The translations under genes and the position numbers were made by a program. From an uncultured Thermoplasmata archaeon (GTDB taxonomy: Archaea; Thermoplasmatota; Thermoplasmata; RBG-16-68-12): a stretch of 64,000 bases of DNA. The stretch's first letter is position 1; every line of letters starts with the position of its first letter. The DNA lies in the NCBI GenBank assembly GCA_963768855.1, contig CAVYJM010000010.1, positions 3,545 to 67,544 of the forward strand, read 5' to 3'. Positions 7,346 through 14,808 of the stretch are shown piece by piece. The notes beneath the pieces were generated by a model. That model ran no database searches and had not been told where the DNA came from. It saw only the letters and a list, made by a program, of their open reading frames with translations.

Positions 7346-7885
7346 CTACGCGCTCGCGAGGAGGTCCTTCGCGGTCACCAGTGCATGAAGGTGCACGGCG
7401 ATCTCCGCGAGGGCCATCTTCCCGCCTTCCTCGCGGTCGACGACCGCGACGACGTCGTCGATGACCGCGCCCTGCGCGCGCAGCCGCTCGATCGCGCCGC
7501 GTAGCGTGCCGCCCGTCGTGATGACGTCCTCGACGAAGAGCACCCGGTCGCCCTTCGCAAGTTCGCCTTCGAACTCCTTCTTCGTCCCGTGCTCCTTCGT
7601 CGCCTTGCGGACCATGAGGTAGGGCTTGTTCGACGCCAGGCTGACGGCCGCAGCGATGGGGACCGCGCCAAGTTCCACGCCCGCGATCCGGTCCGCGTGC
7701 GCCGCGAAGGGGGCCATCCCCTCGCCGATCGCACGGAGCAGGGCGGGCCGCGTCACGGCCTTCTTGATGTCGATGTAGAACGCGGAGGTCTTGCCCGAGG
7801 CCAGGGTGAACGTCCCGAACTGCAGCGCCCCGCACGCCTTGAGGTCCGCCAGGAACGCGGCGCGGTCGAACTCACCAGGGCTCAT
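7346..7885 (-). CDS. pyrE: Orotate phosphoribosyltransferase
   Basis: FGTFTLASGKTSAFYIDIK and the PRPP-binding motif VLFVEDVITTGGT. It overlaps the upstream gene's end by 14 nt, which suggests an operon. Confidence 0.9.
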   Translation of the reverse strand: MSPGEFDRAAFLADLKACGALQFGTFTLASGKTSAFYIDIKKAVTRPALLRAIGEGMAPFAAHADRIAGVELGAVPIAAAVSLASNKPYLMVRKATKEHGTKKEFEGELAKGDRVLFVEDVITTGGTLRGAIERLRAQGAVIDDVVAVVDREEGGKMALAEIAVHLHALVTAKDLLASA

Positions 7886-8969
7886 GCTTCTTCCCCATCC
7901 GGTAGCCGAGGATGTTCACGCCGCGATGCAGCGCGGGCGTGATAAGGATGATGGCGAGCACGCCATACCATGCGTCGCCCGAGAAGAACCGCGGCACGGA
8001 CCAGCCCGCGGCGAGGAGGCTGAGCAAGAGCCCACCCGCCACGAAATCGTACTGATCGAGGCCCGGCGCCTTCGCCCCGCGCGGCTTGTGCATCCGTCGC
8101 TTGACGAACGCGCCGACCAGGTCGCCCAGGAGCGCGCCGAACGCGAGGAGGCCGGACGCGAGGAACGCGTCGAGCGGCGCGCCGAAGGACCAGCCCGACG
8201 ACGGATCGAGGAAGACGAAGGGCAGGGCGAGCAGGAGGCCGAGGAGCGCCCCGCTCAGGGTGCCCCCGACGAGGCCCCGCCACGTCTTTCCGTCCCCGAA
8301 GAGCCGCTCGCCGTCCCGAAGGGTCTTCCCGAAATCCATCGGACGCCCGCCGCCCCACACGACCGCCATCGGGTTCGCGACGTACGCGGGCAGGAAGAAC
8401 CAGAGGGCCTGCGGGATCGCCTCGAGGGCCATCGCCGCGGCGAAGGGGATGGTTCCATATAAGCCACCGCCCGCCGGGCGCGAGCCACCATATTCGGAAC
8501 GGAGGCGCTTCCGCATCTCGAGGTTCATCTCGCTCTGGGAGACGACCTCGTAACCCGAGCTTTCGTACAGGGCGACGGCCACCGTGTTCCAGCGGAACAC
8601 GTTCAAGTGGAGCCATGTCACGCCGGCTTTCAGGAGACGGCGCTCGACCGCCTGGAGGAGACCGCGGCCGTATCCCTTCCCGCGGAGCGCGTCGTCGACG
8701 ACGATCTCGAAGAGCCATCGCTTCCCGCGGGCCCCCTTAGATCCCGGCACAGGCCCGAACCACGCCCAGCCGATCCGGCGGCCCGCGTCGTCCACGGCGA
8801 CGAAGAACTCGTGGCCCCGTTTCGCCGGGCTCGTTCCCACGGTCGAGGCGATCTCCCTGCGCGCCCGCGCGAGCGACTCCTCGCGGGACCAGAATCCCGC
8901 GCGCGCCTTCGCCTCGGCGTACTCGAACGCTTCCCCCTCGAGCGCGTTCCGGCGTTGGGTCGCGGTCAT
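7872..8969 (-). CDS. carS: GNAT acetyltransferase domain fused in one ORF to CDP-archaeol synthase (CarS)
   Basis: The N-terminal ~200 aa are GNAT-like (LFEIVVDDALRGKGYGRGLLQAVE). The C-terminal ~183 aa are CarS/DUF46-like (LPAYVANPMAVVWGG, DGKTWRG, GDLVGAFVKRR, ...GYRMGKKHEPW). There is no stop codon between them. An internal ATG (MALEAIPQALWFF) could also start a stand-alone CarS. The ORF extends up to 9050; I chose the ATG at 8969. Confidence 0.7.
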   Translation of the reverse strand: MTATQRRNALEGEAFEYAEAKARAGFWSREESLARARREIASTVGTSPAKRGHEFFVAVDDAGRRIGWAWFGPVPGSKGARGKRWLFEIVVDDALRGKGYGRGLLQAVERRLLKAGVTWLHLNVFRWNTVAVALYESSGYEVVSQSEMNLEMRKRLRSEYGGSRPAGGGLYGTIPFAAAMALEAIPQALWFFLPAYVANPMAVVWGGGRPMDFGKTLRDGERLFGDGKTWRGLVGGTLSGALLGLLLALPFVFLDPSSGWSFGAPLDAFLASGLLAFGALLGDLVGAFVKRRMHKPRGAKAPGLDQYDFVAGGLLLSLLAAGWSVPRFFSGDAWYGVLAIILITPALHRGVNILGYRMGKKHEPW

Positions 8970-9120
8970 CCGAACGAGCCGGACCGTCCGCGGGGAAGAA
9001 CGCGAAGACGGACCACGACGCGGAGCCACGACTCGATGACAACCCGCCACCCGCCATAGAGCTTGCCCGGACCGGTACCGCCCCGGTCCGCGCGCGTTTT
9101 CGGGGGTGATAATCTCCGCA

Positions 9121-9133
9121 CCACCCCTTTATA
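9121..9133 (+). promoter_or_regulatory. TATA-box promoter core CCACCCCTTTATA upstream of KaiC-like paralog 1
   Basis: The identical 13-mer occurs at 10717-10729 upstream of paralog 2. It ends 29 nt before the ATG at 9163. Confidence 0.5.
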
Positions 9134-9162
9134 GCGCGAGGGGCTCGTTTCGCCTCGGTTCC

Positions 9163-9864
9163 ATGGATCGGGTCAAGACCTTCGTCGAGGGCTTCGACGA
9201 GGCCCTGGGGGGCGGCGTCCCGCGGGGCTCCGTCGTCCTCGTGGCCGGCACTCCGGGCACGATGAAGACCGCCCTGACCTTCTCGATCCTCTACGAGAAC
9301 GTCAAGGCGGGGTCCCGCGCCCTCTACATCTCCCTCGAGGAGAGCCAGGAGGAGCTCCGCGCCTCCATGGCCGACCTCGGCATGACGAGCTTCGAAGACC
9401 TCGAGCTCTACATCCTCGACATCGGGCGCATCCGCCTCGAGCACAAGGAGGAGGAGCTTTCGAAGAACTGGCTCGACGTCCTCCAGAAGTACATCGAGCA
9501 GCGCGTCCGGGTGAACAACTTCGACCTGATCGCGATCGACAGCCTCGAGGCGCTGTACAGCCTGAGCCGTCTCGAGAACCCGCGGCGGGAACTCTTCCAC
9601 TTCTTTGGGTTCCTGCGCTCCCTGAACGCGACCGCGTTCCTGATCACGGAGATCCCGTCCGGCTCGCAGGGCGGCTTCGGCCGCTACGACGAGGAGTTCC
9701 TGGCGGACGGCATCCTGCACCTCAAGCAGGCGCCCATCGGCGAGACCGACGTCCAGCTGCGGATCCGCTGCGTCAAGATGCGCCGGTCCAAGCACGAGCA
9801 CGGCGACTTCGCGCTCGTCCGCGGCGCGGAGCAGTTCCAGATCACCCGCGTGATCTCAAAGTGA
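9163..9864 (+). CDS. Single-domain KaiC/RecA-like ATPase-fold protein, paralog 1 (non-canonical P-loop GTPGTMKT)
   Basis: FDEALGGGVPRGSVVLVAGTPGTMKT; ISLEES; Walker-B-like LIAIDSLEAL; FLADGILHLK; GETDVQLRIRCVKMR. Typical COG0467-like layout. Confidence 0.75.
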   Translation: MDRVKTFVEGFDEALGGGVPRGSVVLVAGTPGTMKTALTFSILYENVKAGSRALYISLEESQEELRASMADLGMTSFEDLELYILDIGRIRLEHKEEELSKNWLDVLQKYIEQRVRVNNFDLIAIDSLEALYSLSRLENPRRELFHFFGFLRSLNATAFLITEIPSGSQGGFGRYDEEFLADGILHLKQAPIGETDVQLRIRCVKMRRSKHEHGDFALVRGAEQFQITRVISK

Positions 9865-10629
9865 CGTCTTCGCGAGGAGCTTGAGGAGCGCGTCGGCGTA
9901 CCGCGCGGCCAGGGGCTCGTTCCCGAACGTCCGCACCGCGGCGGCCTTGTTCTCCTCGATCGCCTCGACCGTCTTCGTCAGGACCGAGACGACGTCCTTC
10001 CCCGGCGCGCGGCGGAACAGCGCGACGATGGCGGTCGTCTCCCCCGTCATGACGACGAGGCGTCCGACGGGGAGGTGCATCACGTAGGTCCCCTGGGCCG
10101 GCCGGCCCGTCTCGCGGCGGATCGCGTCCGCGACGTCGGGCTGGTCCAGGTACGCGGTCTCCCCGGCCTTCGCGAGCACGCCGTGCCCGCGCCGCAGGAT
10201 CAGGAGGGCGATCGCGTTCGACTCTCTCTCCTTCGCCGCGAGGTCGGACCAGAAGGTCGCCTGGAGGGAGAGCGCCCGGAGGCGGCGGCGCAGCGCCGTG
10301 ATGCCGTCGCGGTCTCGCGTCTTCGAGAGCTCGCGAAGCTGCATCTCGAAATCCTTTGCCTCGCGCGGGGCGAGGAGATGGCGGAAGGTCTGGAACTCCT
10401 GATCGAGGGCGTCCAGCTCCGTGGTGGGGCGAGTGCGGACGGGTCCCGGGGCGGTCGCATGGGGCGCGGGTTCGTGGGGCGACAAGCTCGGCACCTCCTG
10501 TTCAATCAGATCGACGGCCTCGGCCAGGTTCTTGTCGGGATGGCGTAGCATGGCCTCCTTGACTTGGTCGCCGCGGCCCTCGAGCTCCCAGAGGAGCAAC
10601 CGGAGGGCTGCCTCGTCCCGTCTACCCAT
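9856..10629 (-). CDS. Hypothetical protein, convergent partner of KaiC-like paralog 1
   Basis: 257 aa with coding-like composition. The C-terminal half (ALLILRRGHGVLAKAGE...GRLVVMTGETTAIVALF) is faintly Roadblock/LC7-like, which I cannot verify by eye. Tail-to-tail overlap of 9 nt with the gene at 9163-9864. Confidence 0.4.
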   Translation of the reverse strand: MGRRDEAALRLLLWELEGRGDQVKEAMLRHPDKNLAEAVDLIEQEVPSLSPHEPAPHATAPGPVRTRPTTELDALDQEFQTFRHLLAPREAKDFEMQLRELSKTRDRDGITALRRRLRALSLQATFWSDLAAKERESNAIALLILRRGHGVLAKAGETAYLDQPDVADAIRRETGRPAQGTYVMHLPVGRLVVMTGETTAIVALFRRAPGKDVVSVLTKTVEAIEENKAAAVRTFGNEPLAARYADALLKLLAKTSL

Positions 10630-10716
10630 CCCTTCTCGCGGAGGCGGAAAGCCGTCTCGCTACAAAAGCGTTCCCTCCAGGAAAACGGATGGGTATCGAC
10701 GCCGATAACTAGGTCG

Positions 10717-10729
10717 CCACCCCTTTATA
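10717..10729 (+). promoter_or_regulatory. TATA-box promoter core CCACCCCTTTATA upstream of KaiC-like paralog 2
   Basis: Identical 13-mer to 9121-9133. It ends 25 nt before the ATG at 10755. Confidence 0.5.
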
Positions 10730-10754
10730 ACGTGGTCCTCGTCCTCCACCCGCG

Positions 10755-11474
10755 ATGGACTCCGAGGTGCCCGTTTTCCATTCCTACGTCGAGGGCTTGG
10801 ACCGCGCCCTCGGAGGTGGCATCCCGAAGGGGAGCACGATCCTCGTCGCCGGCACCCCGGGCACGATGAAGACGTCCCTCATCCTCTGGATGATGCACGA
10901 GAACGCCCGCCTGAACGGCACGCGCTCCCTCTACGTCAGCTTCGAACAGTCCATGGACAGCCTCCGCGCCGGGGCCGCCCGGATGGGCATGACCCAGGTC
11001 GACGAGGCCCACGTGTACATCCTGGACATGGGCCAGCTGCGCCGCGGGATGGAGCGGTCCGAGTCCACGAAGGACTGGGTCACGATCCTCCTCGAGATCA
11101 TCAAGGAGGCCGTCAACTCGAGCCAGTACGAGGTCCTCGCCCTGGACAGCCTCGAGGTCCTCTACGCGCTCACGGAGATGAAGAACCCGCGTCGCGAGAT
11201 GTTCCACTTCCTCACCGGGCTCAAGGAGCTCGACCTGACGACGTTCCTGATCGCCGAGACGCCCTTCGGCGCGCAGCGGCTCGCCCAGTGGGGGGAGGAC
11301 TTCCTCGCCGACGGCATCCTCCAGCTGCGCCAGGTCGAGATCGGCGAGACGGACGTCCAGCTCCGCCTGCGCTGCGTGAAGATGCGATGGATGAACCACG
11401 ACCACAATGCGCTCGCCCTGACCCACGACGGCGAGAAGTTCTTCGTGACGCACGTCCTCGCCAAGAAGAAGTGA
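10755..11474 (+). CDS. Single-domain KaiC/RecA-like ATPase-fold protein, paralog 2 (P-loop GTPGTMKT)
   Basis: LDRALGGGIPKGSTILVAGTPGTMKT; VSFEQS; VLALDSLEVL; FLADGILQLR; GETDVQLRLRCVKMR. Confidence 0.75.
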   Translation: MDSEVPVFHSYVEGLDRALGGGIPKGSTILVAGTPGTMKTSLILWMMHENARLNGTRSLYVSFEQSMDSLRAGAARMGMTQVDEAHVYILDMGQLRRGMERSESTKDWVTILLEIIKEAVNSSQYEVLALDSLEVLYALTEMKNPRREMFHFLTGLKELDLTTFLIAETPFGAQRLAQWGEDFLADGILQLRQVEIGETDVQLRLRCVKMRWMNHDHNALALTHDGEKFFVTHVLAKKK

Positions 11475-11511
11475 AGGGAGGGCGGCCTCCCGCCCTCGTG
11501 GACGCGGCGTC

Positions 11512-12531
11512 TCACTGCGGATTGAGGGGCGGCGCGGGGCCGCTCGGCGGCGGGGACTGAGGCGGCATCGCGTACGGGGACGTCAGGACGGCCCCCGAAG
11601 CTCCGCCGGGGTGCGCGGGGATCTCCCCGCGATTGATCCGCGCCCATGCGAGGTAGTCCGCGGCAGCGAAGAGCAACGCAGGGATGACGTTGAGGAGAGC
11701 GTAGGTGCCCTGCAGGGCGACGACGCTGTCGTAGTCGGCCTGGGTGACCACGGCACCGACCACGGAGCTCAGGAGAAGATACATGGCGATGCTCACGGCG
11801 ATGTTCGCACCGTACGCTGCGAACAGGATGACCCGCCCGGGCTGCGCCTGCAACCCGTAGGTGAACAGGACCTCCGCGATGCCGAGGATGATTGCCGCGG
11901 GAATGGCGCCCAGGAGGCTCGCGTTGAGCGCTGCCGCGAGAATCGGGGGCGTGATCGTGACCGCCCCGCCGCTGCCGAACTGGCCCGCGATGCTCGCCAG
12001 CGCCGCGATGACGGTCACGCCGATCACGACCAGGACGCCGACGATGAACAGGACGATCGAAACGAGGATGTTTCTCGAGTGAGCAGCTCCAAACGCCTTC
12101 CGTCCGAGGATTACGAGGATGACGCCGATGAAGATGAGGAGGTAGCCGATGATCGAGATCAACGGCAGCCATGAGAGCAGGGTCCCGATCAGCAACAGCA
12201 GGACGCCGGTCTTCGTGCGGTCGACCTGCCTCGAGCGGTCATAGTCCCCGGCAGGCGGATAGTAGCCCGCGGCGGACGGATATCCCGGGGGCGCGCCGTA
12301 GGCGGCCGGGGGAGCCACCGCCGGCGCGCCGGCCGCCGCGCCGAGGGGGGCGCCGCAGTTCGTGCAGAACGTGTACCCGGGCTGGTTCTGGTAGCCGCAA
12401 CGCGTGCAGGAGAGAGAGGCTGACACGGACAGTCCTTCGACCCGGCCCAAAGAGGGACACGGGGAAAAAGGTTTCGCGGGCTCTCCGAAGGCTTTTTCAC
12501 CGCCCGCCGTCGTGGGAGGATGCATGGCCAT
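11512..12531 (-). CDS. Zinc-ribbon plus multi-pass membrane protein (DUF973-like)
   Basis: N-terminal CTRCGYQNQPGYTFCTNCGAPL, a Pro/Ala/Tyr-rich linker, then about 6 TM helices. A GTG at 12426 is an alternative start that would remove the head-to-head overlap with the gene at 12524. Confidence 0.55.
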   Translation of the reverse strand: MAMHPPTTAGGEKAFGEPAKPFSPCPSLGRVEGLSVSASLSCTRCGYQNQPGYTFCTNCGAPLGAAAGAPAVAPPAAYGAPPGYPSAAGYYPPAGDYDRSRQVDRTKTGVLLLLIGTLLSWLPLISIIGYLLIFIGVILVILGRKAFGAAHSRNILVSIVLFIVGVLVVIGVTVIAALASIAGQFGSGGAVTITPPILAAALNASLLGAIPAAIILGIAEVLFTYGLQAQPGRVILFAAYGANIAVSIAMYLLLSSVVGAVVTQADYDSVVALQGTYALLNVIPALLFAAADYLAWARINRGEIPAHPGGASGAVLTSPYAMPPQSPPPSGPAPPLNPQ

Positions 12532-12937
12532 TCCGGGCGCCTGGGACCGCTGGATCTCCCTCGAGCTCGGACGCCTGAACGCCGGGCTCGTCGTGGAGCG
12601 GAAGAGCCTAGCCCACCTCCTCCAGGAAGCCGAGCCGGCCTGCCGGGACCGCGAGGGCGCGGACCACCCGTTTGACCCGGCCGCCCTCCGAAGGCTCGCC
12701 CGCGTGCTGACGGCGCAGGAGGCGGAGACCCTCCGACTTCCGGTGACCGTCTTCGTCGCAGGGGACCTGGAGGACAGCGTCTACATCGCAGAGGAGCTGG
12801 CCGCGAAGGCGTTGCGTGCCACGGAGGACTTCGGCCCCGCCTTCCCCTTCCGCGGGGGACGGATGTACCTGCCCCACTCCCTGGCGGTGGACCTCGTGCG
12901 GCGAAGCGGCGGGACCCTGCAGCTCGCGTTCGGGTGA
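12524..12937 (+). CDS. UPF0216/DUF61-family archaeal protein
   Basis: WISLELGRLNAGLVVERKSLAHLLQE...HPFDPAALRRLARVL...LRLPVTVFV matches the DUF61 pattern as I remember it. Confidence 0.5.
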   Translation: MAIPGAWDRWISLELGRLNAGLVVERKSLAHLLQEAEPACRDREGADHPFDPAALRRLARVLTAQEAETLRLPVTVFVAGDLEDSVYIAEELAAKALRATEDFGPAFPFRGGRMYLPHSLAVDLVRRSGGTLQLAFG

Positions 12938-12946
12938 GCGTCCGGG

Positions 12947-13381
12947 TCACTTGGGCGCGTCCGCCGGCTTCTCCCGGCGCGCGATCCAGAGGTCCTCGGG
13001 CACGTCGTCGTAGATCGTCTGTCCGACCCCGGCCTCTTCCTTGGCGCGCTGGGCCTCGACGAGCTCGAAGATGCGGTCCTTGCGGAACATCCAGTAGTGG
13101 ATCCGCCACTCCCGGCCGTCGTAGAGGGTCGTCTCCTCCCGCTCCGTCGTCAGGATGCCGGAGTCCTCGAGCATGTAGAACGCATCCCGGTCCTCCGGTT
13201 CGAGGACGTTGTCGATGATGCGCTCGGAATAGCCGAAGAAGTTGAGGACGTGGGTCGCCATGGCGCGGGCCTCCTCCTCCTTCATCCCCGTGCGGTCGAT
13301 CGAGTTCTTGATCGCGCGGGTGAGGTCGTCCACGGTGATCGTACCGGCTGGTCCCCGCTCAGGCTTCGCCTTCACAGACAT
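12947..13381 (-). CDS. Conserved hypothetical protein (144 aa)
   Basis: ATG at 13381, about 35 nt downstream of a TTATATA element read on the minus strand (13414-13424). The sequence is globular and charged. Family not recognised. Confidence 0.45.
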   Translation of the reverse strand: MSVKAKPERGPAGTITVDDLTRAIKNSIDRTGMKEEEARAMATHVLNFFGYSERIIDNVLEPEDRDAFYMLEDSGILTTEREETTLYDGREWRIHYWMFRKDRIFELVEAQRAKEEAGVGQTIYDDVPEDLWIARREKPADAPK

Positions 13382-13518
13382 GGGTCGCCCCGAAGGAGTA
13401 CTACTTGGGCAGGGGCCTATATAAGCATTCTGTCGGAGGGACCTCGGGATGATTCTCACCCCGCCGCCGGACAGGACACGGCAAAGACCGTTCCAAAGCA
13501 TAAAAGCGAGCCGGTCGC

Positions 13519-14415
13519 ATGCCGGGCAGCGGGATGTTGCAGGACGGGGACGGGACGGAACCGGGCGGGCCGGTTCCCATTGACCGGGGGACACCCGCGA
13601 CGCCGCCAGGTGGGTCCGAGGCGGAGATCCGGACCCTGCGGGACGAGGTCCGCCGTCTGCGCGAGCAGGTGGCCGCCCTGGCCGCCCGGACGAAGGACAC
13701 CGACGCGCGCGTGCCGACGTACGTGAAGGGGCTGGACGCGGCCCTGCAGGGGGGTGTGCCCCGCGGTCACGTCGTCGGGATCGTGGGGCCGGGCGGCTCG
13801 ATGAAGACGTCCCTCGCCCTCTATACGTTGATCCGGAACCGCGCCGCGGGGACGCGCGGGGTCTTCGTCACGATCGAGGAGAGCCGGGACTCGATCGTCC
13901 AGACAATGAAGCGGCTCGGCCTCGGGGACGCTGAGGACTTCGTCGTCGACATCAGCCGGCTGCGCCTCGATTACGCGGGCGCCGAGGAGATCCGCGACTG
14001 GGTGCGGGTCCTCGAGGACTACCTGAGCCGGAGGCGGGAGCGGGACCCGCTGGGTGTCGTCGTCATCGACTCCCTCGATGCGCTGGCCGCCCTCACGCAC
14101 ATCGAGGACGTGCGGCGCGAGCTGTTCCACTTCTTCCACTTCCTGCGTGGCCTCGGGGCCACGTCCTTCGTGCTGGCCGAACAGGACCCGGCGCGGCCCG
14201 GCGTGGACCACGACGTCGCCTTCCTGGCGGACGGCGCGTTCGAGCTCCGCTTCAGCGGCGTCGGGGAGGGAAGGGTCCAGCTCCTGATCCGCATCTCGAA
14301 GATGCGGCACACGAACCACTCGCGGGACTACTTCGTGCTGGACTACGGGCCGGAAGGGTTCACGGCGAGGCCCTACGAGCTCCCGAAGCCGCGCCGCTGG
14401 GGACGGCGGATCTGA
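13519..14415 (+). CDS. KaiC/RecA-like ATPase-fold protein, paralog 3, with an N-terminal coiled-coil extension (P-loop GPGGSMKT)
   Basis: LDAALQGGVPRGHVVGIVGPGGSMKT; VTIEES; VVVIDSLDAL; FLADGAFELR; GRVQLLIRISKMR. The start could be the ATG at 13534, about 30 nt after a CATAAAAG TATA-like element. Confidence 0.7.
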   Translation: MPGSGMLQDGDGTEPGGPVPIDRGTPATPPGGSEAEIRTLRDEVRRLREQVAALAARTKDTDARVPTYVKGLDAALQGGVPRGHVVGIVGPGGSMKTSLALYTLIRNRAAGTRGVFVTIEESRDSIVQTMKRLGLGDAEDFVVDISRLRLDYAGAEEIRDWVRVLEDYLSRRRERDPLGVVVIDSLDALAALTHIEDVRRELFHFFHFLRGLGATSFVLAEQDPARPGVDHDVAFLADGAFELRFSGVGEGRVQLLIRISKMRHTNHSRDYFVLDYGPEGFTARPYELPKPRRWGRRI

Positions 14416-14421
14416 GGCGGC

Positions 14422-14808
14422 TCAGAAGCTGCCCTTGATCTTCGCCCGGTCGATCTTGATGCCGGCCGGGGTGGCCATCATGACGTTCTTGCCGACGACG
14501 GCGACGTCGCCGCCGCAGTCCCGGATTGCACTCTTTAGCTCGGCCGTGATCCGCTTCAGGGCGAGCTCGTCGCTCGACAGGCTCGTGAAGTCGATCAGCA
14601 GGATGTTCCCGTTGTAGACGTGGGTCGTCAGATCTGCCACGTCCTCGTAGCGGTAGATCTCCGCGACCTTGACGAGGTGTTCGACCGGTTCTCCAAGCGC
14701 TCCGCCCTCGCCATCAAAGGTCAGCTCCCCCAGGTCGATGTACGTGTCGGCCTCTGCGGCGGAGCCTCCTTCAGCGAGGCGTTTGAACGGCTTCTTGATG
14801 AAGGCCAT
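14422..14808 (-). CDS. sepF: Cell division protein SepF (archaeal FtsZ anchor, DUF552)
   Basis: 128 aa. The amphipathic N-terminus MAFIKKPFKRL plus the core VKVAEIYRYEDVADLTTHVYNGNILLIDFTSL...AVVGKNVMMATP are typical of SepF. Confidence 0.7.
   Translation of the reverse strand: MAFIKKPFKRLAEGGSAAEADTYIDLGELTFDGEGGALGEPVEHLVKVAEIYRYEDVADLTTHVYNGNILLIDFTSLSSDELALKRITAELKSAIRDCGGDVAVVGKNVMMATPAGIKIDRAKIKGSF

What the first reader, a model, noticed from the sequence alone, without database searches (positions are those of the whole stretch)
9121..14415. Three adjacent KaiC/RecA-like paralogs that all carry a Gly-to-Met substituted P-loop (G-x-x-G-x-M-K-T)
Three same-strand ORFs lie within 5.3 kb: 9163-9864, 10755-11474 and 13519-14415. 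They are mutually alignable single-domain RecA-superfamily (COG0467/KaiC-like) proteins. They share G[VI]P+GS..L[VI]xG, a Walker-B-like hhhhDSL[ED]AL, FLADG and GE..VQL.I+..KMR blocks. In all three the P-loop reads GTPGTMKT, GTPGTMKT or GPGGSMKT. The Gly directly before the catalytic Lys of GxxxxGK[ST], normally invariant, is therefore Met. The ATG codons are visible at 9262-9264, 10866-10868 and 13801-13803, so this is a family trait and not a base-call error. Paralogs 1 and 2 also share an identical promoter 13-mer, CCACCCCTTTATA. Each paralog is convergently paired with a non-enzymatic partner: a 257-aa unknown, a zinc-ribbon membrane protein, and SepF. A DUF61 gene and another conserved unknown are interleaved. 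A bulky Met in the phosphate-binding turn predicts altered or lost NTP binding. That would suggest a set of pseudo-ATPase or sensor subunits next to the cell-division anchor. I know of no described function for such a module.
Basis: partly seen in the sequence, partly recalled or inferred. Interest (0 to 1): 0.7.

Follow-up and report, generated by a model that had tools for sequence, protein, structure and literature searches.

The report
KaiC-like ATPases with Met P-loop
Three neighbouring genes in an uncultured Thermoplasmata archaeon belong to a large, undescribed branch of KaiC/RecA-type ATPases in which the normally invariant glycine before the catalytic lysine is a bulky residue (mostly Met) while every other catalytic residue is kept, so they look like modified working switches rather than dead enzymes.

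Summary
K1 (9163-9864), K2 (10755-11474) and K3 (13519-14415) are single-domain PF06745 KaiC-like proteins with GTPGTMKT, GTPGTMKT and GPGGSMKT.

The Met is a clade trait. About 140 of the best 150 representatives at 50% clustering carry M, L, Y, F or R at that position. None of the single-domain ones has Gly. All named members come from Thermoplasmata or Thermoplasmatota MAGs, and genomes hold at least 7 paralogs.

The pseudo-ATPase reading is not supported. These residues are 97-100% conserved in 131 diverse members:
- Walker-A Lys and Ser/Thr
- catalytic Glu
- Walker-B Asp
- the trans-acting K-x-R
- a nearby His (92%)

The residue two after the Lys co-varies: Ser/Thr/Ala here, Val/Leu/Ile in canonical KaiC.

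Family context fits the archaeal "KaiC hub" idea:
- zinc-ribbon and TPR fusions
- neighbouring Roadblock/LC7 proteins
- Ras-family GTPases
- DUF835

The 257-aa neighbour models as a Roadblock/LC7-like protein.

K3 lies convergent and adjacent to SepF in 72 of 74 SepF-anchored loci. The whole block is syntenic, however, so a division role is only suggestive.

Verdict: a new variant of a known kind, of moderate to high interest. Biochemistry is needed.

The parts
9108..9133 (+). K1 promoter: GATAAT element, then CCACCCCTTTATA (BRE/TATA-like)
   Evidence: The composite pattern GATAAY-N12-20-YTTTATA occurs only here and at 10704 in 64 kb, with 0 expected. GATAA[TC] lies at -58..-51 from the ATG in 29/31 orthologous K1 promoters.
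9163..9864 (+). K1: single-domain KaiC-like ATPase. P-loop GTPGTMKT at 9247-9270, Met codon 9262-9264.
   Evidence: PF06745 E = 1e-38. KaiC PDB hit E = 2e-37, with Met aligned on the Walker-A Gly. AF2 pLDDT 90; Foldseek top hits are KaiC CI, PH0186 and PH0284 at TM 0.8-0.87.
9856..10629 (-). U257: lineage-restricted protein with N-terminal helices, a disordered linker, a helical hairpin and a C-terminal Roadblock/LC7-like domain (residues ~107-226)
   Evidence: No Pfam hit. Only 215 homologs. AF2 pLDDT 73 with an a-b-b-a-b-b-b-a topology. The top 50 Foldseek PDB hits are all Roadblock/LC7, LAMTOR or longin folds or complexes built from them, E from 4e-3, TMt mostly 0.4-0.6. hhalign against a PF03259 family is weak, P = 0.027 over 93 columns.
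10704..10729 (+). K2 promoter: GATAAC element, then CCACCCCTTTATA
   Evidence: GATAA[TC] lies at -55..-49 in 27/29 orthologous K2 promoters.
10755..11474 (+). K2: single-domain KaiC-like ATPase. P-loop GTPGTMKT at 10851-10874, Met codon 10866-10868.
   Evidence: PF06745 E = 4e-34. 49% identical to K1. Groups with K1 in the NJ tree.
11512..12531 (-). ZnRTM: N-terminal zinc ribbon, Pro/Ala-rich linker and about 7 hydrophobic segments
   Evidence: PF13240 E = 5e-8. Hydrophobic segments. Adjacent to K2 in 25 loci but missing in some. The same type of zinc ribbon is fused N-terminally to about 25 of 36 long members of the clade.
12404..12937 (+). DUF61 protein (probable start near 12524)
   Evidence: PF01886 E = 1e-16, with the match starting at residue 48 of the ORF.
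12947..13594 (-). DUF6015 protein (probable start at 13378), divergent from K3
   Evidence: PF19479 E = 5e-32, with the match starting at residue 86 of the ORF. Conserved next to K3 in 32 loci.
13519..14415 (+). K3: KaiC-like ATPase with an extra N-terminal heptad-like helix (about 13615-13683). P-loop GPGGSMKT at 13786-13809, Met codon 13801-13803. Probable start 13534.
   Evidence: PF06745 E = 1e-30. The N-terminal helix is conserved in all K3 orthologs. Convergent and adjacent to SepF in 72/74 SepF-anchored loci.
14422..14808 (-). SepF (FtsZ membrane anchor) with N-terminal MAFIKKPFKRL
   Evidence: PF04472 E = 6e-14. Ortholog alignment.

Best explanation
Summary. K1, K2 and K3 belong to a large branch of single-domain KaiC/RecA-superfamily NTPases. 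As far as seen, the branch is specific to Thermoplasmatota. Its hallmark is a deviant Walker A, G-x-x-G-[TSA]-[M>L>Y/F/R]-K-[ST].

Shown:
- The fold is that of the KaiC CI domain.
- The whole catalytic apparatus except that one Gly is under strong purifying selection.
- The residue two positions after the Lys has changed in step, to Ser/Thr/Ala from Val/Leu/Ile.

Inferred:
- They still bind and slowly hydrolyse ATP at subunit interfaces of ring-shaped homo- or hetero-oligomers, as KaiC does.
- The bulky residue at the N-cap of helix alpha-1 packs against the now-small K+2 residue.
- This retunes nucleotide affinity or turnover rather than abolishing it.

By domain fusions and neighbours, the family acts as nucleotide-dependent regulatory switches of the archaeal 'KaiC hub' type. 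These work through protein-protein contacts.

In this locus:
- K1 and K2 share a promoter architecture (GATAA element plus BRE/TATA), so they are probably co-regulated.
- K1 sits with a Roadblock/LC7-like protein.
- K2 sits with a zinc-ribbon membrane protein.
- K3 carries an extra N-terminal coiled-coil-like helix and sits beside SepF. A role for K3 in regulating membrane- or division-associated assemblies is possible but unproven.
For: Clade trait.
- P-loop position 6 is M 116, L 17, Y 5, F 2, R 1 among the best 150 representatives at 50% clustering. Gly occurs only in three triple-domain proteins.
- It is Met in 117/117 close K1 orthologs.
- It is M 107, L 12, F 1 in a second subclade.

Catalytic site kept, in 131 diverse domains: K35 131/131, S/T36 131/131, E59 127, D126 131, R141 130, K205 130, R207 129, H211 120. 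In HMMER alignments these fall on the KaiC CI motifs GKT, FEE, IDS and K-x-R-G-x-x-H. Mapping them to named KaiC residues is from my own knowledge.

Fold. The AF2 model has pLDDT 90. The P-loop block scores 94-97, and a strand-loop-helix has the helix starting at K35. Foldseek gives TM 0.8-0.87 to KaiC CI, PH0186 and PH0284.

Co-variation. K+2 is S/T/A in about 99% of 374 distinct non-Gly P-loops. It is V/L in KaiC and T/V/I in canonical outgroup domains.

Hub-type context.
- About 25 of 36 long members carry an N-terminal zinc ribbon, with or without TPR.
- Same-strand arrays combine Ras-family GTPases (PF00071, E = 3e-38), Roadblock/LC7 (PF03259, E = 5e-14), a DnaA-AAA+DUF835 protein and multi-zinc-ribbon proteins.
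- Genomes hold at least 7 M-type paralogs, for example L027+L068 and L004+L073.
- U257 models as Roadblock-like.

Promoters. K1 and K2 share a conserved architecture.

Published framework. KaiC-like ATPases have been proposed as archaeal signalling hubs, and 'inactivated KaiC' domains are a described concept (PMC5847659, citing Makarova 2017).
Against: - No biochemical data exist for any member.
- In Ras, the equivalent G15A change dramatically lowers nucleotide affinity (PMC4905258). From my own recollection, RecA tolerates no substitution at the equivalent Gly71. ATP binding could therefore be much weakened despite the conserved surroundings.
- Conserved K, D, E and R residues could serve a structural role or another phospho-ligand.
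- Oligomeric state, and hetero-oligomers among K1-K3, are untested.
- The packing of Met against K+2 is inferred from sequence co-variation and helix geometry, not from coordinates.
- Every K gene is convergent with its 'partner', so none is co-transcribed with it.
- U257, K2 and ZnRTM are dispensable in related lineages.
- The key 2017 survey of archaeal KaiC-like families could not be read. It may already list this group.
Confidence: 0.55

Rival explanations
1. Pseudo-ATPase or scaffold. The bulky residue blocks the phosphate-binding turn. The proteins no longer bind NTP and serve only as structural or sensor subunits, perhaps in rings with active paralogs.
For: The Gly before the Lys is otherwise invariant in KaiC-type P-loops: all KaiC alignments, and all 8 canonical outgroup domains. 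Ras G15A causes a dramatic loss of nucleotide affinity (PMC4905258). Inactivated KaiC-like domains are a recognised category in archaea (PMC5847659). A truly degenerate KaiC-like protein with no Walker A exists in a related genome (L160).
Against: Near-invariance of Lys, Ser/Thr, catalytic Glu, Walker-B Asp and the trans K-x-R across paralogs that have diverged to 27-45% identity is not expected for a dead site. The genuinely degenerate relative in L160 has lost these motifs. All paralogs seen in these genomes' K clusters are M-type, so no obvious 'active partner' sits beside them.
Confidence: 0.2
2. Partner-gated switch. The bulky K-1 residue lowers intrinsic nucleotide affinity so much that loading or release depends on a partner (Roadblock/LC7-type, zinc-ribbon or TPR modules). 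These KaiC-like proteins would then behave like exchange-factor-dependent GTPases rather than autonomous slow ATPases. A changed ligand, such as another NTP or a phospho-protein, is a variant of this idea.
For: The Ras G15A analogy: low nucleotide affinity and tight binding to exchange factors (PMC4905258). M-type genes recur with Roadblock/LC7 proteins and Ras-family GTPases. U257 is Roadblock-like. The bulk requirement (M/L/Y/F/R, never Gly) points to positive selection for a side chain.
Against: Purely inferential. Roadblock partners are absent from many loci. No interface or complex model was made. Roadblock proteins in those arrays may serve the adjacent small GTPases instead.
Confidence: 0.15
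3. K3 is a dedicated SepF/FtsZ division regulator. The conserved convergent K3-SepF pair reflects a functional partnership, for example nucleotide-dependent control of SepF polymerisation or membrane binding through the K3 N-terminal helix.
For: An M-type K is adjacent and convergent to SepF in 30/30 K-anchored loci that contain SepF and in 72/74 SepF-anchored metagenome loci. This includes Sysuiplasma-like genomes, where SepF is only 53% identical. The N-terminal helix is K3-specific and conserved. Archaeal sepF is reported to have an otherwise variable context (PMC8178401).
Against: The genes are convergent, so they are not co-transcribed. The entire XseA-PyrE-CarS...SepF-TrxR-PUA block is collinear in these genomes, so adjacency may be inherited gene order. 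The SepF-PUA order is also kept in Sysuiplasma. The two most divergent SepF loci lack an adjacent K (L158, L159). In the NJ tree, the Sysuiplasma SepF-adjacent K groups with K1/K2, not K3, and lacks the helix.
Confidence: 0.25

Closest known systems
KaiC CI domain (cyanobacterial circadian clock ATPase)
   Same: Best sequence and structure match: PDB E = 2e-37 and TM about 0.8. The same strand-P-loop-helix arrangement. The same catalytic Glu pair, Walker-B Asp-Ser and trans-acting K-x-R...H motif. Like CI, it has acidic or hydrophobic residues where CII carries the phospho-sites.
   Different: A single domain rather than CI+CII. NF006799 score 107 against a cut-off of 408. No KaiA or KaiB nearby. 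The Walker-A Gly is replaced by Met. K+2 is Ser instead of Val/Leu. The Gly after the Arg finger (K-x-R-G) is also lost.
Archaeal single-domain KaiC-like ATPases (PH0186, PH0284, SSO2452; the 'KaiC hub' families of Makarova et al. 2017)
   Same: Same size and fold: TM 0.87 to PH0186. Same COG0467-type family. Same tendency to expand into paralogs and to fuse or associate with sensor and adaptor domains (framework in PMC5847659).
   Different: Those proteins carry canonical GxxGxGK[ST]. The present clade never has Gly at that position. It scores far below the curated TIGR03877/03880/03881 cut-offs: 82-97 against 248-307. Where named, it is confined to Thermoplasmatota MAGs.
ArlH/FlaH (KaiC-like ATP-binding protein of the archaellum motor)
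   Same: A single-domain KaiC-like protein that acts as a nucleotide-dependent regulator by binding a partner rather than as a fast ATPase.
   Different: NF052589 score 58 against a cut-off of 215. No archaellum genes in the locus. ArlH keeps the Walker-A Gly (my own knowledge).
Inactivated KaiC-like domains ('iKaiC') and other degenerate RecA-family paralogs
   Same: They deviate from the Walker-A consensus within the KaiC superfamily (PMC5847659).
   Different: iKaiC-type domains are described as divergent and possibly inactivated. Here every catalytic residue except one is conserved.
Ras G15A / Rho G17A-type P-loop mutants
   Same: Substitution of the same P-loop Gly, the residue just before the Lys. 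This is the only well-studied precedent for what such a change does: a dramatic drop in nucleotide affinity (PMC4905258).
   Different: These are engineered point mutants of a GTPase. They are not natural and not accompanied by a compensating K+2 change. The P-loop class is different.

Membership tests
Pfam PF06745 KaiC domain (RecA superfamily, COG0467-type) | Profile match above the gathering score (26.6 bits) | tested here: met
   133, 118 and 107 bits for K1, K2 and K3.
Pfam PF06745 KaiC domain (RecA superfamily, COG0467-type) | RecA-like fold with strand-P-loop-helix, superposable on KaiC CI | tested here: met
   AF2 pLDDT 90, pTM 0.90. Foldseek TM 0.80-0.87 to 4tlb, 2zts and 2dr3.
Canonical Walker-A P-loop NTPase | GxxxxGK[ST], with Gly directly before the Lys | tested here: not met
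   Met in all three. M/L/Y/F/R across the clade.
Catalytically competent KaiC/RecA-type ATPase | Walker-A Lys and Ser/Thr, catalytic Glu after strand 2, Walker-B Asp, trans-acting Lys/Arg finger | tested here: met
   97-100% conserved in 131 diverse members. Aligned on the KaiC motifs.
Catalytically competent KaiC/RecA-type ATPase | Measured ATP binding and hydrolysis; hexameric ring | not testable with these tools
   Needs recombinant protein. No multimer modelling was available.
Circadian KaiC proper (NF006799 / TIGR02655) | Two tandem KaiC domains and a score above the equivalog cut-off | tested here: not met
   A single domain. 107 against 408 bits, and 63 against 546 bits.
Circadian KaiC proper (NF006799 / TIGR02655) | Ser/Thr autophosphorylation pair (S431/T432 of CII) and KaiA/KaiB partners | tested here: not met
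   In the CII alignment, the K1 residues opposite I-S-T-I-T-D are E-F-L-A-D-G (residue numbering is my own knowledge). No KaiA or KaiB match among the neighbours.
TIGR03880 / 03881 / 03877 archaeal KaiC families | Score above the curated cut-off | tested here: not met
   Best scores 97 against 249, 82 against 248, and 82 against 307.
ArlH (NF052589) and RadB (TIGR02237 / NF006861) | Score above the curated cut-off | tested here: not met
   58 against 215 for ArlH. 28-29 against 172-278 for RadB.
Pseudo-ATPase (decayed active site) | Loss of several catalytic residues and relaxed constraint on the site | tested here: not met
   Only the Gly is changed, and all other site residues are near-invariant. 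Contrast the degenerate relative in L160.
Roadblock/LC7 (PF03259), for U257 | Profile match, or the a-b-b-a-b-b-b fold | tested here: inconclusive
   No Pfam hit even at E = 10. hhalign gives P = 0.027. The AF2 topology fits, and the top 50 Foldseek hits are all Roadblock, LAMTOR or longin folds or complexes built from them, but E is only 4e-3 and TMt mostly 0.4-0.6.
SepF (PF04472), for the gene at 14422-14808 | Profile match above the gathering score, plus an N-terminal amphipathic membrane-targeting helix | tested here: met
   52.6 bits against a cut-off of 27. MAFIKKPFKRL is conserved in orthologs.
Anti-phage defence system (PADLOC) | A match of the genes to a known defence-system model set | tested here: not met
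   Only one weak generic P-loop hit: K2 to mad8, 24 bits.

The most novel reading that the evidence does not exclude
The bulky residue before the Walker-A lysine defines a new functional class of P-loop. It would be a naturally 'G15A-like' KaiC-type NTPase whose nucleotide loading or release is gated by partner proteins: Roadblock/LC7-like, zinc-ribbon or TPR modules. Thermoplasmata would thereby have a large family of exchange-factor-dependent ATP switches. One of them (K3) would control the SepF/FtsZ division apparatus.
Probability: 0.12. Interest if true: 0.85.

Novelty: new variant of a known kind. Interest (0 to 1): 0.6.

Why it matters
- The Gly before the Walker-A lysine is one of the most conserved residues in biology. 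Changing it in Ras cripples nucleotide binding.
- Here thousands of natural proteins carry Met, Leu, Tyr, Phe or Arg at that position: 2604 clusters at 90% identity with E <= 1e-10 for one subclade profile alone.
- They keep every other catalytic residue and show a co-varying second-shell change.
- This is a ready-made natural experiment on how a P-loop can be retuned.
- The family is the dominant KaiC-like expansion in a widespread group of uncultured soil and sediment Thermoplasmata.
- It is wired to Roadblock proteins, small GTPases and zinc-ribbon proteins, and sits physically next to SepF.
- If even part of that wiring is functional, it gives an entry point into signalling and division control in archaea that cannot yet be grown.

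Tried and rejected
- Sequencing error or chance: rejected. The Met is conserved in 117/117 orthologs and across paralogs.
- Met-specific chemistry (redox sensing, metal ligation), prompted by the neighbouring thioredoxin-reductase-like gene: unlikely, because L, Y, F and R substitute freely.
- Membership of circadian KaiC, ArlH, RadB or the TIGR0387x families: rejected on curated cut-offs.
- Defence system: rejected.
- U257 related to DUF61, DUF6015, SepF or the f49 family: no signal in hhalign.
- Rosetta-stone link between N-terminal extensions of long clade members and U257, DUF61 or SepF: none. Only the generic zinc ribbon matches ZnRTM, plus one marginal DUF6015 hit at E = 0.005.
- Literature:
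  - No paper contains the motifs GTMKS, GTMKT, GSMKS or GSMKT in a relevant context.
  - Nothing links SepF with KaiC in archaea.
  - Makarova et al. 2017 (PMC5717392) is not held. Prior mention there cannot be excluded.
- My first GC3-based gene caller missed DUF61, DUF6015 and SepF. I replaced it with a codon-usage model.
- The NJ tree could not decide whether the Sysuiplasma SepF-adjacent gene is a K3 or a K1 ortholog.
- No RNA genes lie in the window.

Full report
**1. Observation**

| Gene | Coordinates | Identity |
|---|---|---|
| K1 | 9163-9864 (+) | PF06745 KaiC domain, E = 1e-38 |
| K2 | 10755-11474 (+) | PF06745, E = 4e-34 |
| K3 | 13519-14415 (+) | PF06745, E = 1e-30 |
| U257 | 9856-10629 (-) | 257 aa, no Pfam match |
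| ZnRTM | 11512-12531 (-) | zinc ribbon plus about seven hydrophobic segments |
| DUF61 | 12404-12937 (+) | PF01886 |
| DUF6015 | 12947-13594 (-) | PF19479 |
| SepF | 14422-14808 (-) | PF04472 |

- The K genes score far below every curated NCBIfam cut-off for KaiC, the archaeal KaiC families, ArlH and RadB.
- Alignment A1 gives 50% (K1/K2) and 43% (K1/K3) identity. tblastn gives 49%, 42% and 38% (K2/K3). There is no further copy in the window.
- The Met codons are exactly where stated.
- In HMMER alignments to solved KaiC structures, LVAGTPGTMKT lies on LVAGTPGTGKT. The Met therefore replaces the second Walker-A Gly.
- The 13-mer CCACCCCTTTATA occurs only at 9121 and 10717.

The window is about 67% G+C. 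The closest relatives are MAGs labelled Thermoplasmata, Methanobacteriota or 'Euryarchaeota archaeon RBG_16_68_13'.

**2. The Met is a clade trait**

- All 117 close K1 homologs (67% identity or more) with a readable P-loop carry Met.
- I searched a profile of K1-K3 against 1.84 billion representatives clustered at 50% identity. It gave 339 hits at E <= 1e-30.
- Among the best 150, the residue before the Lys is M 116, L 17, Y 5, F 2 and R 1. The only Gly P-loops belong to three triple-KaiC-domain proteins.
- A profile from a second subclade found 2604 clusters at 90% identity with E <= 1e-10. The best 120 are M 107, L 12 and F 1.
- In 79 loci from GTDB species representatives, every K homolog has a non-Gly residue. 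This holds down to 27-30% identity, for example GPPGAMKS.
- Every source name is an uncultured Thermoplasmata, Thermoplasmatota, 'Methanomassiliicoccales' or Sysuiplasma MAG. The annotations are generic: 'ATPase domain-containing', 'AAA family ATPase', 'KaiC', 'GvpD'.
- Single genomes hold at least seven such paralogs, for example L027+L068 and L004+L073.

**3. It does not look like a dead enzyme**

In an alignment of 131 single-domain members (representatives of 50%-identity clusters, plus K1-K3), the conserved positions are:

| K1 position | Conservation | Role (by alignment to KaiC CI) |
|---|---|---|
| K35 | 131/131 | Walker-A Lys |
| S/T36 | 131/131 | Walker-A Ser/Thr |
| E59 | 127/131 | catalytic Glu |
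| D126 | 131/131 | Walker-B Asp |
| R141 | 130/131 | conserved Arg |
| T157 | 130/131 | conserved Thr |
| E163 | 127/131 | conserved Glu |
| D182 | 130/131 | conserved Asp |
| K205 | 130/131 | trans-acting Lys |
| R207 | 129/131 | trans-acting Arg |
| H211 | 120/131 | conserved His |

- These fall on the KaiC CI motifs GKT, F-E-E, I-D-S and K-x-R-G-x-x-H. In KaiC those motifs supply the phosphate-binding Lys/Thr, the catalytic Glu, the Walker-B Asp and the trans-acting Lys/Arg from the neighbouring subunit. That functional assignment is my own knowledge.
- A site no longer used for nucleotide chemistry would not be held like this across paralogs that have otherwise diverged to 30-45% identity.
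- A related genome contains a KaiC-like protein that really has lost its Walker A (L160).

The AF2 model of K1 is confident: pLDDT 90, pTM 0.90, and 94-97 over residues 21-40.
- It shows strand 24-29, loop 30-34 and a helix starting at K35.
- It superposes on KaiC CI, PH0186 and PH0284 at TM 0.80-0.87.

**4. A coupled second change**

- Wherever the K-1 residue is M, L, Y, F or R, the K+2 residue is Ser, Thr or Ala. This holds in about 99% of 374 distinct P-loops.
- KaiC has Val or Leu at K+2. Canonical outgroup domains have Thr, Val or Ile.
- K-1 is the N-cap and K+2 the N3 position of helix alpha-1. Such positions lie next to each other at helix N-termini (general structural knowledge).
- I infer that the bulky side chain lies back on the helix, where room has been made, rather than in the phosphate pocket. 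This step is inference. I could not inspect coordinates.
- Other clade-specific conserved residues are N46, R91, W103, F179-L180, C203 and loss of the Gly after the Arg finger.

**5. What the family associates with**

Fusions:
- Of 36 long members, about 25 begin with a CxxC...CxxC zinc ribbon, often followed by TPR repeats, ahead of the M-type domain.

Neighbours, found with a codon-usage gene caller and all-against-all clustering of the loci:
- Same-strand arrays of the type Ras-family GTPase, Roadblock/LC7 x2, small Cys-rich protein, K, K, K, membrane protein, K. Examples are L067, L068, L073 and L079.
- The order MCM, small protein f42, f31, K, GTPase, GTPase (L065, L070, L072, L078). MCM is my reading of the f41 sequence, not a tested annotation.
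- Clusters with a DnaA-type AAA+ protein ending in DUF835, and with multi-zinc-ribbon proteins.

Pfam confirms these identities:
- PF00071 (Ras), E = 3e-38
- PF03259 (Roadblock/LC7), E = 5e-14
- PF00308 + PF05763 (DnaA ATPase + DUF835)
- PF13240 (zinc ribbon)

This is the type of network proposed for archaeal KaiC-like 'signal transduction hubs' (PMC5847659, citing Makarova et al. 2017, which I could not obtain).

**6. The neighbours in this window**

U257:
- It is an orphan, with 215 homologs and no Pfam match.
- Its AF2 model (pLDDT 73) has N-terminal helices, a disordered linker, a helical hairpin and a C-terminal b-b-a-b-b-b-a unit.
- The 50 best Foldseek PDB matches are all Roadblock/LC7, LAMTOR/Ragulator or longin folds, or complexes built from them. 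E starts at 4e-3, probability is about 1.0 and TMt is mostly 0.4-0.6.
- A weak hhalign match to the PF03259 family spans the same region, P = 0.027.
- I call it Roadblock-like with moderate confidence.

Gene order:
- The order XseA-PyrE-CarS-K1-U257-K2-ZnRTM-DUF61-DUF6015-K3-SepF-TrxR-PUA is conserved in about 30 loci.
- U257, K2 and ZnRTM are missing in deeper relatives. L030, for example, has CarS-K1-DUF61-DUF6015-K3-SepF.
- K2 groups with K1 in a neighbour-joining tree. The K2 unit therefore looks like a later duplication and insertion.

Promoters:
- K1 and K2 share more than the 13-mer. GATAAY-N12-20-YTTTATA occurs only at these two promoters in the window, with 0 expected.
- GATAA[TC] lies at -58 to -49 from the ATG in 29/31 K1 and 27/29 K2 orthologous promoters, against 0.02 expected per 80 nt.
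- These orthologs are related, so the counts are not independent. The element nevertheless persists where the flanking sequence has changed.
- This suggests a common regulator.

**7. K3 and SepF**

- All K3 orthologs carry an N-terminal heptad-like helix (...E-I-R-x-L-R-D-E-V-R-R-L-R-E-Q-V-A-A-L...). It is absent from K1 and K2.
- In 30 of 30 K-anchored loci that contain SepF, an M-type K ends 7-65 nt from the end of SepF on the opposite strand.
- In an independent SepF-anchored scan of metagenome contigs, 72 of 74 loci with enough flank have the same arrangement. All readable P-loops there are G-P-x-G-x-M-K-T.
- The two exceptions are the most divergent SepFs (L158, L159).
- Sysuiplasma-like genomes, where SepF is 53% identical, also have a K next to SepF. 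That K lacks the helix and groups with K1/K2 in the NJ tree.

Against a functional reading:
- The genes are convergent.
- The whole block, including unrelated housekeeping genes, is collinear.
- SepF-PUA linkage is kept in Sysuiplasma too.

Pende et al. report that archaeal sepF has a variable context (PMC8178401). The pairing is therefore unusual but not proof. I put a real K3-SepF functional link at about 0.25.

**8. Mechanism, with its status**

Shown:
- KaiC CI-type fold.
- Deviant Walker A fixed in a large clade.
- Catalytic residues conserved.
- K+2 co-variation.
- Paralog expansion.
- Fusion and neighbourhood pattern.

Inferred:
- The proteins form KaiC-like rings.
- They bind ATP at subunit interfaces. 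The conserved trans K-x-R supports this.
- They act as slow, partner-coupled nucleotide switches.
- The bulky K-1 residue retunes affinity or kinetics.

What the change does quantitatively is unknown. The best precedent, Ras G15A, drastically lowers nucleotide affinity (PMC4905258). That keeps two readings alive: the pseudo-ATPase reading (0.2) and a more interesting partner-gated exchange reading (0.15).

**9. Comparison with known families, and novelty**

- By membership tests, these are PF06745 KaiC-domain proteins of the RecA superfamily.
- They are not circadian KaiC, not ArlH, not RadB, and not members of the curated archaeal KaiC families.
- They fail the canonical Walker-A definition while passing every other catalytic-site criterion.
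- I found no paper describing this P-loop variant or a SepF-KaiC link. The principal 2017 survey was unavailable.
- I rate the finding a new variant of a known kind.
- It is surprising to a P-loop specialist and directly testable with simple biochemistry.
- Its biological role rests on context alone. Interest 0.6.

Noticed in passing
window 9108-9133 and 10704-10729; loci L001-L048 upstream of K1 and K2: A conserved GATAA[TC] element lies 12-15 nt upstream of the TATA box of both K1 and K2. The composite pattern is unique to these two promoters in 64 kb. It is kept in 29/31 K1 and 27/29 K2 orthologous promoters. It is probably a shared transcription-factor site.
   Followed up: partly
window about 13615-13683 (K3 residues ~33-55): K3 and all its orthologs carry an extra N-terminal heptad-like amphipathic helix that K1 and K2 lack. 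It is a candidate dimerisation or partner-binding element. The K3 start is probably Met6 (13534), judging from orthologs and a TATA-like box near 13500.
   Followed up: partly
window 7872-9050 (-): A single 392-aa ORF combines a GNAT acetyltransferase domain (residues ~50-175) with CDP-archaeol synthase CarS (208-392). This appears to be a fusion of a lipid-synthesis enzyme with an acetyltransferase.
   Followed up: no
L067, L068, L073, L075, L079 (same genomes as the K1-K3 loci L027, L004, L028, L010): A second cluster holds 3-4 tandem M-type KaiC-like genes. It is preceded on the same strand by a Ras-family small GTPase, two Roadblock/LC7 genes and a small Cys-rich protein, and followed by membrane proteins. 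It looks like an operon-like MglA/MglB-style module joined to KaiC-like ATPases.
   Followed up: partly
L068 gene 5 (family f28); L160 515-1866 and 1868-2617: Further Walker-A deviants occur among Thermoplasmata KaiC-like proteins: GPPGVGKF (Phe for the Ser/Thr; PF06745 plus DUF7504), GPTGSAKT (Ala before the Lys), and a KaiC-TPR-zinc-ribbon protein with no Walker A at all. This lineage seems to experiment freely with the P-loop.
   Followed up: no
L032, L033, L037-L040, L046, L047, L056, L057: Another recurrent context has a DnaA-type AAA+ protein with a C-terminal DUF835 domain, next to what I read as phosphoglycerate kinase (untested). It holds an M- or R-type K (GTPGARKT or GSPGTMKT), a multi-zinc-ribbon protein, a second K (GPPGAMKS), a coiled-coil zinc-ribbon protein and a giant surface protein ending in zinc ribbons.
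   Followed up: no
window 12524-12531 and 13519-13594: The longest-ORF starts make divergent gene pairs overlap at their 5' ends (ZnRTM/DUF61 and DUF6015/K3). Pfam match positions and orthologs indicate later starts: DUF61 about 12524, DUF6015 about 13378, K3 about 13534. This leaves a 140-nt divergent promoter region with a TATATA box at about 13420.
   Followed up: partly
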